A stretch of 64,000 bases of DNA from assembly GCA_017528315.1 (NCBI GenBank), contig JAFXOW010000005.1, positions 1,986 through 65,985 of the forward strand, read 5' to 3'. The position numbers and the translations under genes were made by a program. Origin of the DNA: Bacilli bacterium (GTDB lineage: Bacteria; Bacillota_I; Bacilli_A; RF39; UBA660). The notes under the pieces were generated by a model that saw only the letters and a list, made by a program, of their open reading frames with translations, made no database searches and had not been told where the DNA came from. Position 1 is the stretch's first letter, and each line of letters starts with the position of its first letter. This document shows positions 38,074 to 59,357 of the stretch, one piece after another.

Positions 38074-38149
38074 GGCCTGTTGGTGAAGTGGTTAACACAT
38101 AGCCCTCTCAAGGCTACATTCATGGGTTCAAGTCCCATACAGGTCACCA
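38074..38149 (+). tRNA. tRNA-Glu(CTC)
   Basis: Acceptor stem GGCCTGT/ACAGGTC, anticodon arm TAGCC-CTCTCAA-GGCTA, T loop GGTTCAAGTCC, encoded CCA. Promoter TTGAAA-17-TAGAAT at 38007-38035. Confidence 0.95.
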
Positions 38150-38258
38150 ATTTTGAATTTAATCGAATTTTTACCTAAAGTTCGATTTTAGTATATATTA
38201 TTATATTTAGTATCAAAAATATTTTGACTTTTATGTATACTTATGATATTATGTATTT

Positions 38259-38373
38259 GTTGAGAGGAATCTCATATAATAAAAAAGGGGAAATACTTAA
38301 CTTGCCTTGTTGAGTACTTACCCTATAAAATAGTGTTAGTACTTAATCTAATGCAGATTGAGTACTATTTTTT
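38259..38373 (+). ncRNA. Candidate cis-antisense sRNA (type I antitoxin), locus 1; ends approximate
   Basis: TTGACT(38224-38229)-17-TATTAT promoter, no ORF, strong terminator TAGTACTTAATCT/AGATTGAGTACTA plus T run at 38337-38373. Overlaps the 3' end of a minus-strand peptide gene. Confidence 0.62.
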
Positions 38374-38452
38374 ATTATTTGAATCAATTGAGAAACAATT
38401 AATAAAATGATTATTAATATTAGAAATAAGATTAGTAAATTTTTTTCTTCAT
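38343..38452 (-). pseudogene. Small hydrophobic peptide gene (candidate type I toxin, 36 aa) interrupted by a one-base frameshift in an A7 run
   Basis: Promoter TTGTAT-18-TGcTATAAT, SD AAGGAGG, ATG at 38452. With A8 it reads MKKKNLLILFLILIIILLIVSQLIQIIKNSTQSALD*; as sequenced it reads MKKKIY*. Confidence 0.6.
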
Positions 38453-38714
38453 AATATCAAGCCTCCTTCCTTTTAGAAGTCGGCAAGTACTCAACAGTCA
38501 GTATTTCCTGTAATCATTATAGCACATATTAAAATTATAATACAATACATTTTTGTCATTTTATAAAAATGTTTTTTTTATAATTATCATAAAAAATAAT
38601 GAATTATTTTATTGAATTTTTATTTTTTTACATTTTATTTACACAATACATAATTTGACATTTTACTTATTTATTATTCTTTGATATACTTATTATAAGA
38701 ATAGAGGTGGTAAA

Positions 38715-55005: not shown

Positions 55006-55263
55006 TTGTATAATATAAATGATGCTTTGTATGTAAAAGATAAATTAAATTTAACTTTTAATAAATTTACTATTAATGATTTGCTTAATGGTATGAATAT
55101 TGAAAGTGAACATGGACTTGTTAATCCTTTAACTAATGTAACAGATGATGATTTAATTAAAACAGCTAAGATTGCTCTTGCTCATTTAAATGAATTTCCT
55201 AATTATTACAATGAGCTATATGGTTTAAAGAAATTTGAGGAATTTTTAAAGAAAAAATTATAA
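55006..55263 (+). CDS. DUF5661-like small protein
   Basis: GMNIESEHG...TNVTDDD..KTAKIALAHLNEFPNYY. TTG start. Confidence 0.65.
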   Translation: MYNINDALYVKDKLNLTFNKFTINDLLNGMNIESEHGLVNPLTNVTDDDLIKTAKIALAHLNEFPNYYNELYGLKKFEEFLKKKL

Positions 55264-55505
55264 AAAACTTAACATTTATTATTTTTTGTGATATATTATT
55301 AGCACATAAGTAATTATTTTATATGTTTTGCATATAATACTTATGCTACAATGTAGTAAAAAAAGCAGGTGAAGCCAGCCTTAAATGGCAGCTAAAAGAG
55401 TGAGATTAGAAATTATTTTCTGAAATCTTTTTCAAAATGGCAGATTAAGTATATACTATTTGCTATTTTTATTATATAATTATTTAGGAAGTTGGTAGTA
55501 TAAAT

Positions 55506-56543
55506 ATGTATACAATATATGATTATTTAAAGTATTATAAAGATTATAGTTTAAAAGATTTAAAATGGAATGTTATGGATAATTTATTATTATCTTGTCT
55601 TGTTTATATGCCTCTTAAATCTTTTGAATATAAAGATTATAAGACATTAATTTCTGAAATACTAGAAAGTAACGTTAAAGATATTAAAGATTTAATGGTA
55701 CCTAAAACTTTAGAAATAGCTAGTATTATTAAAGAATCTAAGAGATATCAGAATATGAAATTTTATAATTTTATTAATCAAGTAAATAGTAAAACTCAAT
55801 TTGGAGCTATAACAGTTGTTTTAGATAATATAAAAATAATTACTTTTAGAGGTAGTGATAGAAGTGTCATTGGATGGCTTGAAAATTTTAGAATTGCATA
55901 TCTTTATCCAACCTACACTCAACAAGTAGCAATTGATTATTTAAATAATAATATTAATTTATTTGATAATAATGTTTATATATGTGGTCATTCTAAGGGT
56001 GGTAATCTCTCAATTGTAAGTGCTATGGAATTACCAAGTTTTAAATTGAGAAAAATAAAAAATATTTATAATTTTGATGGACCAGGAGTAAGACATGAAG
56101 AATTTGAATCTTTAAAATATAAACGTATAAAATCTAAAATTGTTAATATAATACCAACTAGTTCCTATGTAGGTGCTCTTTTATATAATGAGAATTATTA
56201 TGTTGTAAAAACAAGTGCTCATGCTATAAATGTTCATTATCCAATATATTGGAATATTTTTGGAATAGAATTTGTTAAAGGAAACTTATCTAAGTCTAGC
56301 CTGGGATTAATTAAAGGAACGACAACTAATTTAGATAAAGTACCAAAAGATAAATTACAGGAAGTATTGGAAGAATCATTTAAAATATTTAAAAAAAGAG
56401 AAACTAATAATATTAAATTAACGCTTAATGATTTAAAAAATATTGTTAAAAATATAAGTAAGATGGATCCTGAAATATCCAAATATGTATCTTTGATTTT
56501 TTCCAGTATTATTAATATAAGAGAGAAAAATAATGAAAAATGA
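55506..56543 (+). CDS. DUF2974 (Mbeg1-like) alpha/beta hydrolase
   Basis: FRGSD..VIGWLENF, GHSKGGNL, FDGPG. Confidence 0.82.
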   Translation: MYTIYDYLKYYKDYSLKDLKWNVMDNLLLSCLVYMPLKSFEYKDYKTLISEILESNVKDIKDLMVPKTLEIASIIKESKRYQNMKFYNFINQVNSKTQFGAITVVLDNIKIITFRGSDRSVIGWLENFRIAYLYPTYTQQVAIDYLNNNINLFDNNVYICGHSKGGNLSIVSAMELPSFKLRKIKNIYNFDGPGVRHEEFESLKYKRIKSKIVNIIPTSSYVGALLYNENYYVVKTSAHAINVHYPIYWNIFGIEFVKGNLSKSSLGLIKGTTTNLDKVPKDKLQEVLEESFKIFKKRETNNIKLTLNDLKNIVKNISKMDPEISKYVSLIFSSIINIREKNNEK

Positions 56544-56769
56544 ACTTATTAAAAAAATAGATAAAATTCATACAACTAGTCTTGGAATGAAAAGAATTAA
56601 AACAAATCTTAACATAGAAGCAAGTGGAGTAGATTATTGTAAAAATATTCTATTAAACGAAGATTCAATTGTTTATAAGAATGGTAAAAATTATTATTTA
56701 AAATATAATAATATTCTTTTTACAATTAATAGTTTTAGTTATACTATAATAACTGCCCATATTATTTAA
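56533..56769 (+). CDS. DUF3781-like small protein
   Basis: HTTSLGMKRIKTNL...GKNYY...TINSFSYTIITAH. Confidence 0.65.
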   Translation: MKNELIKKIDKIHTTSLGMKRIKTNLNIEASGVDYCKNILLNEDSIVYKNGKNYYLKYNNILFTINSFSYTIITAHII

Positions 56770-56814
56770 TTATTATTTGCTGTATCAAAAGATATTTGAC
56801 TTATATATGTATTT

Positions 56815-56933
56815 GTCAAGGAAACTTGCATGAAATAAAAATGGAAACATTCAGTTTTGGTATGCTGAATGTCTACCCAATAAAATGGTGAAGACATTTA
56901 ATCTATTAGTGATAGATTAGATGTCATTTTTTT
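56815..56933 (+). ncRNA. Candidate cis-antisense sRNA (type I antitoxin), locus 2; 5' end approximate
   Basis: 5' hairpin CAAG-GAAA-CTTG; 14-bp terminator stem GACATTTAATCTAT/ATAGATTAGATGTC plus T7 at 56893-56933. Convergent with a peptide gene. The -35 element is poorly defined. Confidence 0.55.
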
Positions 56934-57016
56934 ATTACTACTATCATAATGATAAGGAAAAATAAAATGATAGCAATGAATTTTAGAACTTTTATAATAA
57001 AAGCCTTAGTTTTCAT
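56924..57016 (-). CDS. Small hydrophobic peptide (candidate type I toxin), 30 aa
   Basis: SD GAAGGGAG, ATG at 57016, MKTKAFIIKVLKFIAIILFFLIIMIVVIKK*; intact. Below the ORF-track length cutoff. Confidence 0.72.
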   Translation of the reverse strand: MKTKAFIIKVLKFIAIILFFLIIMIVVIKK

Positions 57017-57188
57017 CTTATCAAATCTCCCTTCTTTTAAAATGGAAGGTAGACATCCCGCAACTGACGTTTCCATAAGATATATATTACATACTAATTA
57101 TACATTGCAAGTCATTTATGTTATTTTTGCAAATATAATTTTTTAATTTTTTAAATTTATTGTATAATAGAATGGAAAGGAATCTTAT

Positions 57189-59357
57189 ATGAAAAAAATA
57201 ATTCTTAAAATAGATGGTATGAGTTGCAGTGCTTGCAAAGAATCCTTAGAAAAATATTTAAATAAACAAGAAGGAATTACAGCTAATGTTAATTTAGTAA
57301 TGGCTTTGGCTTCAATTAATTATGATTCAGAAAAAGTTGATACTTCTAATATCGAAAAATTTATAGAAGAAGCTGGTTTTAAAAGTTTAGGAGAATATAG
57401 ATTTGAAAATAATACTAAAGATAATAGCAAATTATTATTAATAATATATTTAATTTTACTTTTAATAATTATATATATAATGATTAGTAATATATCAAAT
57501 ATATTATTAATAAATTATTTAAATAAAGATTTATATCCAATTATTTATGGATCTATTTTGTTAATATTAACAATACCATTTATTATCTATGGTTTTGATA
57601 TAATAAAAAATGGAATATTTAAATTAAAACATAAATCACCTAATATGGATACATTAGTTACAATAGGTGTAATAGTATCATTCATTTATAGTTTAGTTAA
57701 TTTAAATTTAATTATTTTTGGTAATAAAACACTAGTTAATCATTTATATTTTGAATCATGTGCTATGATTATTTATTTTGTTAAACTTGGACGTTTTATT
57801 GATAAAAATAATAAAGAGAAAGCGAAAGAAGCAATTGAAGAACTCGTACAAATAACACCTGAATATGCAAGATTACAGAATGGATTAAAAGTAACAATTG
57901 ACGAAGTTAAAGAAGGAGATATATTAATTGTAAGACCTGGTGAGAAAATAGCCGTTGATGGAATAGTTACTAAAGGAGAAAGCCATGTATTAGAAAGTTT
58001 TGTAACTGGTGAATCTATACCATCTAAGAAAAAGAGGAACGATAATGTTTTAGCAGGAAGTATTAATATTGATGGAGTACTTGAATATAAAGCATTAAAA
58101 ATTGGAAAGAATTCAACAATATCGGAAATTGTTCATTTAGTTGAAGAATCAATTAATTCAAAATTAGCAATAGGAAGACTAGCTGATAAAGTTAGTGGTA
58201 TATTTGTTTTAAGTATTATAATAATTGCTATTATTACCTTTATTATTTATTTAATAATAGGTAGGGGTGGTGATATGGCTATTATTACTTTAGTAAGTAT
58301 ATTAGTTGTTTCATGTCCGTGTGCTATGGGACTAGCAACACCTTTAGCTATTGTTATAGCAAATGGATTATGTTTTAAAAAAGGAATTTTAGTAAGAAAT
58401 AGTGAAATATTAGAAATAGCTAGTAAAATTAAAAAAATTGTTTTTGATAAAACTGGTACTTTAACTTATGGAGATTTAAGAGTGTCACGTCTTGCTAATT
58501 ATTCTGATTATTCTAATGATAAATTATTAAATATTGTAGCGAGTTTAGAAAAAAATTCTCTTCATCCAATTGCAAGTGCTTTTAAAATGTATGATCCAAG
58601 GTATGAAGTAACTGATTTCCGAAATATTGAAGGGTGTGGTATTACTGGAGTAATTGGAAGAAAAACATTTTATGTTGGAAATAGTAGACTTCTAAATGAT
58701 TTAGATATAATAAATGAAAAAGAAAATATTGAAGAAAACTTCGCATCACTTGGAAATAGTATTTTATATATTGTTGAAAATAAAAAAATAATTGGTTTAA
58801 TAGGAGTTAAAGATATTGTAAGAAAAAATACTAAAAAAATTATAAATGAACTTAAAAATATGAATATAGATATTTATATGTCAACAGGAGATAATAAGTT
58901 AACTGCTAATATTATTGCTAAATCTATTGGAATAGAAAACGTTAAAGCTAATTTACTTCCTAAAGAAAAATTAGAATATTTAAAAGAATTAAAGAATAAC
59001 TCCAAAGTAATGATGATAGGTGATGGAATAAATGATGCACCAGCTTTATCTTTAAGTGATATAGGAGTTAGTGTAAACGGAGCAGCAGATATTTCCAAAA
59101 ATTCTAGTGATATAATCTTATTAAACGATGATTTAAGTAAAATTATAACTTTAATTAAAATAAGTAAAAAAACAATAAAAATTATCAAACAAAATTTATT
59201 TTGGGCATTTTGCTATAATTTATTTATGATACCAATGGCTATGGGTTTATTTAGTAATATTGGATTAACTTTAAATCCTTCTATTTCAAGTATAGCAATG
59301 ACTTTAAGTAGTTTAATAGTGGTATTTAATTCTTTAAGATTAAGAAAAATAAAATAA
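57189..59357 (+). CDS. copA: Cu(I)-translocating P1B-type ATPase
   Basis: GMSCSAC, TGES, CPC, DKTGT, HP, GDGINDAP, YN and MTLSS ligand motifs. Confidence 0.88.
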   Translation: MKKIILKIDGMSCSACKESLEKYLNKQEGITANVNLVMALASINYDSEKVDTSNIEKFIEEAGFKSLGEYRFENNTKDNSKLLLIIYLILLLIIIYIMISNISNILLINYLNKDLYPIIYGSILLILTIPFIIYGFDIIKNGIFKLKHKSPNMDTLVTIGVIVSFIYSLVNLNLIIFGNKTLVNHLYFESCAMIIYFVKLGRFIDKNNKEKAKEAIEELVQITPEYARLQNGLKVTIDEVKEGDILIVRPGEKIAVDGIVTKGESHVLESFVTGESIPSKKKRNDNVLAGSINIDGVLEYKALKIGKNSTISEIVHLVEESINSKLAIGRLADKVSGIFVLSIIIIAIITFIIYLIIGRGGDMAIITLVSILVVSCPCAMGLATPLAIVIANGLCFKKGILVRNSEILEIASKIKKIVFDKTGTLTYGDLRVSRLANYSDYSNDKLLNIVASLEKNSLHPIASAFKMYDPRYEVTDFRNIEGCGITGVIGRKTFYVGNSRLLNDLDIINEKENIEENFASLGNSILYIVENKKIIGLIGVKDIVRKNTKKIINELKNMNIDIYMSTGDNKLTANIIAKSIGIENVKANLLPKEKLEYLKELKNNSKVMMIGDGINDAPALSLSDIGVSVNGAADISKNSSDIILLNDDLSKIITLIKISKKTIKIIKQNLFWAFCYNLFMIPMAMGLFSNIGLTLNPSISSIAMTLSSLIVVFNSLRLRKIK

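What the first reader, a model, noticed from the sequence alone, without database searches (positions are those of the whole stretch)
56800..57110. Hidden type I toxin-antitoxin-like locus 2 with an intact 30-aa peptide
Seen on the minus strand: TTGCAA-18-TATATA; a 5' UTR ATGGAAACGTCAGTT..ATGTCTACC complementary to a 3' segment at about 56841-56878; a CCTTC/GAAGG hairpin over the SD; and the ORF MKTKAFIIKVLKFIAIILFFLIIMIVVIKK with basic ends and one TM helix. Seen on the plus strand: a convergent RNA ending in a 14-bp terminator that overlaps the TGA. An in-frame ATG at 57076, near the predicted TSS, could give a leaderless 50-aa form. Inference: a functional membrane-targeting type I toxin with its antitoxin, upstream of copA.
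Basis: partly seen in the sequence, partly recalled or inferred. Interest (0 to 1): 0.8.

Follow-up and report, generated by a model that had tools for sequence, protein, structure and literature searches.

The report
Unannotated type I toxin-antitoxin-like module family
The flagged 310 bases are one intact copy of a compact, many-copy module found in uncultured low-GC gut bacteria; it encodes a 30-residue membrane peptide on a tightly folded mRNA with a small RNA gene on the opposite strand, which is the layout of a type I toxin-antitoxin pair that no gene, protein or RNA database lists.

Summary
Comparison with more than 130 related copies shows the features are conserved and not chance.

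- **Family.** The locus (window ~57113-56777, toxin on the minus strand) belongs to a self-contained ~330-bp module family. It occurs in MAGs labelled uncultured Bacilli, Tenericutes or 'Mycoplasma sp. CAG', often in tandem arrays and always in different neighbourhoods.
- **Peptide.** The 30-aa ORF is intact in about 122 of 133 assessable copies and is under purifying selection (pN/pS 0.33).
- **Toxin mRNA.** Its first ~30 nt pair with its last ~35 nt. Diverged subfamilies keep this pairing through compensatory changes. The SD and AUG are sequestered.
- **Opposite strand.** Relatives carry a canonical extended -10 promoter there. Two hairpins use G·U pairs that would be A·C mismatches on the toxin strand, so an antisense RNA of ~120 nt is strongly implied.
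The 50-aa leaderless form is not conserved (2 of 103 copies). Adjacency to copA is incidental. This copy's two promoters are less canonical than the family norm.
- **Not shown.** Toxicity, antitoxin action and strand-specific transcription are untested. An apparent RNA depth peak turned out to reflect DNA copy number.
- **Databases.** Pfam, NCBIfam, Rfam, PADLOC, PHROGs, PDB and two protein collections hold nothing like it.

The parts
57081..57110 (-). Toxin promoter: -35 TTGCAA (57110-57105), 18-nt spacer, -10 TATATA (57086-57081). The alternative -10 TAATAT lies at 57089-57084. The predicted transcription start is about 57078-57074.
   Evidence: The sequence is. It lies at the place homologous to the family promoter TTGTTT-17-TATAAT, which sits at one fixed position in 77 of 103 copies. 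The window copy is less canonical than the family.
57048..57076 (-). 5' UTR closure arm: helix a at 57076-57060 and helix b at 57059-57048. It pairs with the 3' end of the same mRNA.
   Evidence: The pairing appears in the MFE fold. The window's own duplex is -37.2 kcal/mol, and the family mean of -36.3 compares with -11.9 for shuffled partners and -34.9 +/- 0.18 for cross-locus pairs. Diverged subfamilies show compensatory changes.
57027..57048 (-). SD-sequestering hairpin: the anti-SD CUUCC (57048-57044) pairs with the SD GGGAG (57031-57027).
   Evidence: It appears in the MFE fold. The probability that the SD is unpaired is 0.11 in this copy. The family mean is 0.28, against 0.46 for shuffled-upstream controls, and it is lower than the control in 85 of 99 copies. 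The closest relative L003 has CCUCC/GGAGG instead.
56924..57016 (-). Toxin ORF: ATG at 57016, 30 codons (MKTKAFIIKVLKFIAIILFFLIIMIVVIKK), TGA at 56926-56924.
   Evidence: Searches show the ORF. It is intact in about 122 of 133 assessable copies. Third-position entropy is 0.81, against 0.48 and 0.39 at positions 1 and 2. pN/pS is 0.33 in the codons not fixed by the search pattern.
56893..56935 (+). Intrinsic terminator of the antisense RNA: hairpin 1 at 56893-56925, followed by A-U7. It overlaps the stop codon and the last Lys codons.
   Evidence: One search found the hairpin. It is more stable on this strand in 97 of 101 copies (-12.1 against -8.7 kcal/mol). At stem positions 5 and 7, 74% and 22% of copies have U·G pairs, which are C·A mismatches on the toxin strand. 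Positions 9-12 show compensatory changes.
56842..56878 (-). 3' closure arm and hairpin 2 of the toxin mRNA: GGGUAGACAU..CUGAAUGUUUCC, with stem arms at 56872-56865 and 56854-56847.
   Evidence: On the toxin strand, stem positions 8-9 are A·C or C·A mismatches in 87-90% of copies. Those bases instead pair with the 5' UTR GUU.
56830..56841 (-). U-run (UUUUUAUUU) that follows hairpin 2 and the closure helix. This is the predicted 3' end of the toxin mRNA, which would be about 245 nt long.
   Evidence: Sequence. The T-run is at least 90% conserved in alignment A2. The end point is inferred, not mapped.
56814..56933 (+). Predicted antisense (antitoxin) RNA of about 120 nt. It has a 5' hairpin (hp0, 56815-56829), an A-rich linker, hairpin 2 (56847-56872) and terminator hairpin 1. 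It overlaps the 3' ~100 nt of the toxin mRNA.
   Evidence: The fold has z = -4.1. On the family alignment 93.2% of cells are paired and 14 pairs changed on both sides, against 4.3 +/- 1.3 in shuffles (0 of 500). Slid controls give 28-40% paired. No strand-specific RNA data exist.
56778..56808 (+). Place homologous to the family's antisense promoter. In this copy it reads TATATA/ATATAT (56802-56808), with no TG extension and only a poorly spaced TTGCTG as a -35.
   Evidence: Family consensus: TTGnnA, 17-nt spacer, TGnTATTAT. The TG is present in 96 of 100 copies and the 17-nt spacer in 94 of 100. The window copy scores 5.5 of 12 against the family mean of 9.46.

Best explanation
The locus is one intact copy of a previously unannotated, many-copy family of type I toxin-antitoxin-like modules in uncultured low-GC gut Bacilli.

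**Shown by sequence and comparison**
- The minus strand carries a promoter, a ~60-nt structured leader and a 30-codon ORF for a Lys-flanked single-helix hydrophobic peptide.
- It also carries a ~95-nt 3' UTR whose last ~35 nt pair with the first ~30 nt of the leader, closing the mRNA.
- The SD and AUG are held in local helices.
- In relatives the plus strand carries a canonical extended -10 promoter.
- That promoter is followed by a ~120-nt RNA made of a small 5' hairpin and two further hairpins. Their G·U pairs exist only on that strand. The last hairpin is an intrinsic terminator overlapping the toxin stop codon.
- The two RNAs overlap by about 100 nt. Each RNA's terminator is an internal hairpin of the other.

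**Inferred mechanism**
- The closed, SD-masked full-length mRNA is a stable, translationally silent store.
- The antisense RNA docks through the complementary hairpin loops and zips into a ~100-bp duplex over the 3' UTR. This destroys the closure and exposes the mRNA to double-strand-specific and other RNases, so no peptide is made.
- If antisense supply falls, processed or opened mRNA is translated. The peptide then inserts into the membrane and arrests growth.
- The 5' half of the antitoxin has nearly the same sequence as the toxin leader. The two therefore compete for the same 3' element.
For: **Family and spread**
- 14 metagenome loci were found.
- nhmmer found 183 hits, including tandem arrays of 2-4 copies and a second, diverged copy in this window.
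- Neighbours are unrelated: 187 clusters for 222 flanks.

**Coding**
- The ORF is intact in about 122 of 133 copies, and about 11 are decayed.
- pN/pS is 0.33, and the third codon position varies most.
- TGA is a stop codon in this genome.

**mRNA structure**
- Fold z = -7.2, with the closure and SD pairing in the MFE.
- Own 5'/3' duplexes average -36.3 kcal/mol, against -34.92 +/- 0.18 for cross-locus pairs (0 of 200 permutations reach it) and -11.9 for shuffled partners.
- Diverged subfamilies keep their own pairing: -30.3 kcal/mol, against -21.2 and -19.6 when partners are swapped. Explicit compensatory changes are visible.
- The SD is masked.

**Antisense gene**
- The promoter TTGnnA-17-TGnTATTAT sits at a fixed place in 94-96% of copies.
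- Hairpin 1 is stronger on the antisense strand in 97 of 101 copies.
- G·U pairs on the antisense strand correspond to A·C mismatches on the toxin strand in both hairpins.
- The formal pair count on the antisense RNA beat all 500 shuffles.

**Known analogues**
- Convergent, 3'-overlapping type I pairs of similar size are documented (PMC5961336; PMC8309996).
Against: - No experiment or strand-resolved RNA data exist. Runs holding this exact sequence are DNA metagenomes.
- The depth peak in 'RNA?' runs is also present in DNA runs, so it reflects copy number.
- Only weak, unstranded metatranscriptome contigs cover relatives: X22 and X32.
- Toxicity is inferred from peptide shape only.
- In the window copy both promoters are non-canonical, so this copy could be poorly expressed.
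- Most relatives were retrieved with a DNA pattern that fixes the C-terminal half of the ORF and the A-run. Conservation there, and the U-tail of hairpin 1, are therefore partly ascertainment.
- RNAalifold on the plain MAFFT alignment did not recover the long-range helices.
Confidence: 0.72

Rival explanations
1. The module is a small membrane-protein gene under cis-antisense and mRNA-structure control, but it is not a toxin-antitoxin pair. The peptide would have a benign role, for example as a membrane-protein accessory or stress peptide, and the antisense RNA would simply tune it.
For: All comparative evidence concerns architecture and not toxicity. Many small membrane proteins in Gram-positives are not toxic (review PMC10730256, listed).
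Against: The family shows selfish-element behaviour:
- many copies per genome and tandem arrays;
- unrelated insertion contexts;
- about 8% decayed copies;
- a 14-39-fold excess of the conserved core over the flanks in community DNA.

Translation is masked on three levels. There is also no conserved partner gene.
Confidence: 0.15
2. The family is real, but this window copy is a decaying or silent member. Weakened promoters would leave an intact ORF that is hardly expressed.
For: - The antisense promoter scores 5.5 of 12 against the family mean of 9.46, and it has neither the TG extension nor a well-spaced -35.
- The toxin promoter has an 18-nt spacer and the -10 TATATA, where the family has TTGTTT-17-TATAAT.
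- The other copy in this window (38238-38533) is frameshifted.
Against: - The ORF, SD, closure helices and both hairpins are intact and fold as in the family.
- The closest relative, L003, shares the same toxin promoter but has a canonical antisense promoter (and the sequence).
- Promoter scoring by consensus is crude in a 24% GC genome.
Confidence: 0.3
3. The module is a non-coding repeated element (a structured-RNA or REP/MITE-like repeat), and the 30-codon ORF is incidental.
For: - The module is short and highly repeated.
- It is bounded by inward-facing, similar sequences.
- Nucleotide conservation is very strong, even in the UTRs.
Against: - Codon-position periodicity and pN/pS of 0.33.
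- A conserved SD at a fixed distance and an ATG or GTG start.
- K/R and hydrophobic substitutions preserve the character of the peptide.
- Diverged subfamilies keep an ORF of 29-30 codons with different sequences.
Confidence: 0.05
4. The real product is the 50-aa protein started at the ATG at 57076, on a leaderless mRNA.
For: The ATG is in frame and lies close to the predicted transcription start. One database gene call, P0001 (63 aa), reads through this frame.
Against: - Only 2 of 103 copies have an uninterrupted in-frame upstream ATG, and 73 of 103 have a stop in that stretch.
- Relatives differ in frame there.
- The stretch is conserved as RNA helices and not as codons.
Confidence: 0.02

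Closest known systems
Bacillus subtilis bsrG/SR4 and txpA/RatA (and the S. aureus sprG1/SprF1 class): type I pairs with a 3'-overlapping cis-antisense RNA
   Same: - Both have a small hydrophobic peptide.
- The genes are convergent.
- The antitoxin RNA is complementary to the 3' end or 3' UTR of the toxin mRNA.
- The SD sits in a helix.
- Duplex degradation is expected (PMC8309996).
   Different: - No sequence similarity: Pfam and NCBIfam hits are nil, and Rfam is nil.
- Here the antitoxin target is itself the 3' partner of a 5'-3' closure of the mRNA, and the antitoxin's 5' half mimics the toxin leader.
- The peptide is shorter (30 aa), with Lys residues at both ends.
Clostridioides difficile CD2517.1/RCd8 and CD2907.1/RCd9 type I systems
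   Same: - Both have convergent, overlapping transcripts of similar size. The C. difficile toxin mRNAs are ~300 nt, the antitoxins ~134-140 nt and the overlaps ~131-134 nt (PMC5961336).
- Both occur in several copies in gut Firmicutes.
   Different: - The C. difficile toxins are unrelated 50-53-aa peptides associated with CRISPR arrays and prophages.
- No such association is seen here.
- To my knowledge no 5'-3' closure has been reported for those systems.
hok/Sok (E. coli plasmid R1) and aapA1/IsoA1 (Helicobacter pylori)
   Same: In both, the full-length toxin mRNA is locked by pairing of its 5' end with its 3' end and is translationally inert. This works like the closure seen here (established knowledge; aapA1 rearrangements are mentioned in PMC8309996).
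   Different: - In those systems the antitoxin pairs with the 5' part or the translation initiation region and acts on a 3'-processed mRNA.
- Here the antisense RNA covers the 3' closure element itself.
- There is no mok-like leader ORF and no sequence similarity.
Enterococcus faecalis par (fst RNA I / RNA II)
   Same: Both are Gram-positive modules of about 300-400 bp with convergent RNAs, terminators in the overlap and a masked SD.
   Different: - In par the two RNAs share one bidirectional terminator, and RNA II also pairs with the 5' translation initiation region through direct repeats.
- Here there are two interleaved, strand-specific terminators and no complementarity to the initiation region.
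- The peptide does not match any Pfam or NCBIfam family.

Membership tests
Type I toxin-antitoxin system (the general kind) | A small hydrophobic or membrane peptide ORF with its own promoter and SD | tested here: met
   A 30-aa ORF with 16 consecutive hydrophobic residues flanked by Lys, an SD (GGGAG) and a promoter. It is conserved and under purifying selection.
Type I toxin-antitoxin system (the general kind) | An RNA gene whose transcript is complementary to the toxin mRNA | tested here: inconclusive
   The sequence evidence is strong. It comprises a conserved extended -10 promoter, strand-specific G·U hairpins, and a terminator with covariation. No strand-resolved transcript data exist.
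Type I toxin-antitoxin system (the general kind) | The peptide is toxic when over-expressed | not testable with these tools
   This needs inducible expression in a laboratory strain.
Type I toxin-antitoxin system (the general kind) | The RNA neutralises the toxin by blocking translation and/or destabilising the mRNA | not testable with these tools
   A ~100-nt perfect overlap is present, but its effect is only inferred.
Known type I toxin protein families (Fst/Ldr, TxpA/BsrG-type, Hok, and others with Pfam or NCBIfam models) | A match to the family profile | tested here: not met
   Pfam and NCBIfam give no hit above noise, with best E-values of 0.12-0.3 to unrelated TM segments. PADLOC, PHROGs and PDB give none. 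The scan of 1.84 billion representatives gave 0 hits. The exact peptides are absent from the 15-billion protein collection.
Known antitoxin or toxin-mRNA RNA families in Rfam | A match to a covariance model | tested here: not met
   There is no Rfam match at gathering score in the window, except a tRNA. There is none at E <= 10 in 56300-57400.
hok/Sok-type regulation (5'-3' fold-back inhibition) | Pairing of the 5' end with the 3' end of the full-length mRNA | tested here: met
   This concerns how the locus works and does not make it a member of the family.
hok/Sok-type regulation (5'-3' fold-back inhibition) | The antisense RNA targets the 5' region or a leader ORF (mok) | tested here: not met
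   The antisense gene lies at the 3' end. No leader ORF is conserved.

The most novel reading that the evidence does not exclude
The family may be a distinct design of type I system. The antitoxin RNA would be a near copy of the toxin mRNA's own 5' end, so leader and antitoxin compete for one 3' element. Each RNA's terminator would be an internal hairpin of the other. The long-range 5'-3' helix abutting the U-run might even contribute to termination. In that case one ~35-nt element would set the mRNA's stability, its accessibility and its pairing with the antitoxin together. The module would also be the dominant, so far invisible, toxin-antitoxin repertoire of a whole uncultured, reduced-genome gut lineage.
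Probability: 0.3. Interest if true: 0.75.

Novelty: new member of a known kind. Interest (0 to 1): 0.62.

Why it matters
- **Detection gap.** Type I systems are thought to have a narrow distribution, largely because they are hard to detect (PMC12390103; PMC5367252). This family is abundant: at least 119 stretches in species-representative genomes of rabbit, mouse, ruminant, chicken and human gut MAGs, with tandem arrays. Yet it is absent from every protein and RNA resource queried. Gene callers never call the ORF.
- **A natural experiment in RNA design.** The many diverged copies carry abundant compensatory changes. They cover a 5'-3' mRNA closure, SD masking and two interleaved strand-specific terminators, and the design can be tested directly in laboratory strains.
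- **A practical marker.** The family marks uncultured low-GC Bacilli, and it warns against reading k-mer depth peaks as expression.

Tried and rejected
1. **Relatives through copA.** The genome scan with CopA found nothing. The module is independent of copA.
2. **Viral, phage and plasmid collections.** No match.
3. **RNA expression.** Runs holding the exact locus are DNA only. On a mouse-MAG copy, 'RNA?' runs gave a 50-165-fold depth peak over the conserved 3' segment. DNA runs gave the same peak at 14-39-fold. I therefore rejected the peak as evidence of an abundant sRNA. Only unstranded contigs in two metatranscriptomes (X22, X32) remain as weak support.
4. **RNAalifold on the MAFFT alignment of 68 mRNAs.** It did not recover the long-range helices, because of register shifts between subfamilies. 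I replaced it with duplex-energy permutation tests, explicit partner tables and a pair count on the antisense RNA.
5. **Profile search of the big protein database with the peptide alignment.** The exact look-up and the representative scan were negative.
6. **The 50-aa leaderless form.** Rejected.
7. **Code 4 (TGA = Trp) read-through.** Rejected: the window has 29 ORFs of at least 300 codons under code 11, and four of them end in TGA.
8. **The + strand hairpin as terminator of the upstream DUF3781 gene.** Rejected as a general explanation, because the hairpin travels with the module into unrelated contexts.

Full report
**1. Observation**

| Feature | Coordinates |
|---|---|
| -35 TTGCAA | 57110-57105 |
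| Spacer | 18 nt |
| -10 TATATA | 57086-57081 |
| In-frame upstream ATG | 57076 |
| Leader ATGGAAACGTCAGTTGC GGGATGTCTACC | 57076-57048 |
| Anti-SD CUUCC | 57048-57044 |
| SD GGGAG | 57031-57027 |
| ORF start (ATG) | 57016 |
| Stop (TGA) | 56926-56924 |

The ORF has 30 codons and encodes MKTKAFIIKVLKFIAIILFFLIIMIVVIKK.

On the plus strand the terminator scan finds one site, against 0.1 +/- 0.3 expected in shuffles. It is a 15-pair hairpin at 56893-56925 followed by A-T7, and it overlaps the stop codon.

The leader is complementary to 56878-56842. Folding the 247-nt RNA from 57076 to 56830 gives -68.3 kcal/mol, against -39.3 +/- 4.0 for dinucleotide shuffles (z = -7.2). The minimum-energy structure contains three things: the 5'-3' closure, the anti-SD/SD helix and a paired AUG.

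The window has 24% GC and comes from a gut metagenome scaffold. No gene was called for the peptide in the source. Neighbours are a DUF3781 gene (56533-56769, +), copA (57189-59357, +) and pcrA.

**2. The locus belongs to a large family**

- The only protein-database relative of the 50-aa reading is a 63-aa call on a 520-bp contig. Alignment with that contig shows a conserved block from about 57125 to 56818, with unrelated flanks.
- A metagenome scan gave 14 further loci.
Nearly all are MAGs labelled uncultured Bacilli, Tenericutes, 'Mycoplasma sp. CAG:611/CAG:877' or Candidatus Ventrenecus. They come from rabbit, mouse, goat, deer, chicken and human guts.
- I believe these labels correspond to RF39-type reduced-genome Bacilli. 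That is from memory and was not tested here.
- A profile search of the held DNA gave 183 hits, including tandem arrays of 2-4 modules (for example L136, L104, L119 and L038). It also found a second, diverged copy in this window at 38238-38533.
- The nearest ORFs on the 222 module flanks fall into 187 unrelated clusters. The module is therefore self-contained and has no conserved protein partner. Its adjacency to copA is incidental.
- Phage, plasmid and viral collections hold nothing similar.

**3. The ORF is a gene**

- Of 138 pattern-matching copies, about 122 of the 133 that can be assessed keep an intact ORF of 30-36 codons with an ATG or GTG start.
- About 11 copies are decayed by frameshift, start loss, internal deletion or 5' truncation.
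- In the 13 codons not fixed by my search pattern, entropy is 0.48, 0.39 and 0.81 at codon positions 1, 2 and 3. pN/pS is 0.33.
- Lys/Arg at positions 2, 4, 9 and 12, and Phe6, are kept.
- TGA is a stop codon in this genome.
- The in-frame upstream ATG is not conserved. Only 2 of 103 copies have it uninterrupted, and 73 of 103 have a stop in that stretch. That stretch is conserved as RNA and not as codons.

**4. The toxin mRNA is closed and masked**

- Across 102 copies, the first 32 nt and the 3' ~55 nt form duplexes averaging -36.3 kcal/mol. Shuffled partners give -11.9 +/- 2.9.
- Swapping partners between loci gives -34.92 +/- 0.18, and none of 200 permutations reaches the own-pair value.
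- Diverged subfamilies provide the decisive evidence. Their own pairs average -30.3 kcal/mol, against -21.2 and -19.6 when partners are exchanged.

The partner sequences show plain compensatory changes:

| Subfamily | 5' arm of helix b | 3' arm of helix b |
|---|---|---|
| Main | GUGUCUACC | GGUAGACAU |
| B (includes the second window copy) | GAGUACUUGCC | GGUAAGUACUC |
| C | GUGUCGUCC | GGCGACAU |

Helix a changes in the same way: CAG/CUG becomes GAU/AUC, UAA/UUA or GAC/GUU.

The SD is predicted to be unpaired with probability 0.28, against 0.46 for shuffled-upstream controls. It is lower than the control in 85 of 99 copies. In full-length RNA the values are 0.21 for the SD and 0.09 for the AUG.

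**5. An antisense RNA gene is strongly implied**

- In relatives, a promoter TTGnnA-17-TGnTATTAT lies on the opposite strand at a fixed place. The TG is present in 96 of 100 copies and the 17-nt spacer in 94 of 100. Its -10 box ends 34 nt upstream of the GGGAAC motif.
- The RNA would therefore begin at a small hairpin, CAAGGAAACUUG.
- Hairpin 1 follows the toxin stop codon. It is more stable on the antisense strand in 97 of 101 copies (-12.1 against -8.7 kcal/mol). It is followed by a T-run on that strand only. Part of that T-run was fixed by my search pattern.
- Stem positions 5 and 7 of hairpin 1, and positions 8-9 of hairpin 2, are U·G or G·U on the antisense strand in 22-87% of distinct hairpins. 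On the toxin strand these are C·A or A·C mismatches.
- Positions 9-12 of hairpin 1 switch AU/UA and UA/CG.
- The hairpin-2 bases that mismatch on the toxin strand pair with the leader there instead: GUUGAGUGUCUACC with GGUAGACAUUCAAC, 14 bp.
- A formal count on 21 antisense sequences gave 93.2% of cells paired (shuffles 88.0 +/- 0.6). Fourteen pairs changed on both sides (shuffles 4.3 +/- 1.3). Both values beat all 500 shuffles. Slid controls gave 28-40% paired.
- The window's antisense RNA (about 56814-56933) folds into the three hairpins with z = -4.1.

**6. What is not shown**

- No stranded RNA data cover this locus.
- A depth peak over the conserved 3' segment in 'RNA?' runs is reproduced in DNA runs. 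It reflects the copy number of the repeat and not expression.
- Two metatranscriptomes contain unstranded contigs of relatives, X22 and X32. This is weak support for transcription.
- Toxicity and neutralisation are untested.
- In this copy both promoters are weaker matches than the family norm.

**7. Mechanism (inferred)**

- The closed, SD-masked full-length mRNA is a silent, stable store.
- The antisense RNA binds through complementary hairpin loops and forms a ~100-bp duplex over the 3' UTR. This removes the closure and triggers decay.
- Loss of antisense supply allows a processed or opened mRNA to be translated into a membrane-active peptide.
- The antitoxin's 5' half is nearly a copy of the toxin leader, so the two compete for the same 3' element.

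**8. Comparison with known systems**

- The layout and sizes resemble the 3'-overlapping type I pairs of B. subtilis, S. aureus and C. difficile (PMC8309996; PMC5961336).
- The closure works like those of hok and aapA1.
- Membership in any described family fails:
  - Pfam, NCBIfam, PADLOC, PHROGs and PDB give no match.
  - Rfam gives none.
  - The exact peptides are absent from 15 billion predicted proteins.
  - The scan of 1.84 billion representatives found nothing.
  - Literature searches found no description of the family.

**9. Verdict**

I classify the locus as a new family (a new member) of the known kind 'type I toxin-antitoxin'. It has an unusual combination of a 5'-3' closure and an antitoxin that targets the 3' end. 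Confidence is 0.72 and interest is 0.62.

Noticed in passing
window 38238-38533 (minus strand), next to the tRNA at 38074-38146: A second, diverged copy of the same module (nhmmer E = 5e-22), with its own compensated 5'/3' pairing (GAGUACUUGCC / GGUAAGUACUC, -35.8 kcal/mol). Its ORF stops after MKKKIY because of a frame change in an A7 run. The hydrophobic frame (LLILFLILIIILLIV...) continues out of frame and resembles subfamily B peptides such as MKKKDLLISFLILIIILLIVSVMILCIKK. It is either a pseudogene or a slippage-prone A-run; I did not decide which.
   Followed up: partly
L136:1367-4413, L104:105-1127, L119:241-1319, L038:4223-5036 and others: Modules often sit in head-to-tail arrays of 2-4 copies spaced a few tens to a few hundred bases apart. 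Copies from different subfamilies are sometimes mixed in one array.
   Followed up: partly
L038:4737-4797 and L038:4249-4309 (equivalent to window ~56807-56867): The conserved 3' core of the module has 14-39 times the contig depth of its flanks in mouse-gut DNA runs. It is comparable to a neighbouring tRNA. The core is therefore one of the most repeated short sequences in those communities, and depth peaks in RNA runs there cannot be read as expression.
   Followed up: yes
L024, L028, L108, L134 (frameshifts); L036 (start lost); L022 (internal deletion); L026, L076, L110, L112, L133 (5' part replaced): About 8% of copies are decayed in different ways while keeping the 3' (antisense) part. These look like orphan antitoxin genes or remnants.
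   Followed up: partly
L007, L009, L081, L084, L104 (AAAAAAA-GAC) and L016 (TGG): Some copies have lost the TGA stop, either through a one-base shorter A-run or through TGA changing to TGG. They end 2-6 codons later (..KKDI..KKGI..KKWHLIFT), inside hairpin 1.
   Followed up: no
L021:1351-1606 and L080:3143-3394: These copies have an extra ~15-20-nt insert with its own small GC-rich hairpin (GUGCCAUAAGGCA-like) between hairpin 1 and hairpin 2 (alignment A2).
   Followed up: no
window 55006-56769: Upstream of the module lie genes for DUF5661, an Mbeg1-like (lipase-like) protein and a DUF3781 protein. The last two overlap by 11 nt. They are not associated with the module in other genomes.
   Followed up: no
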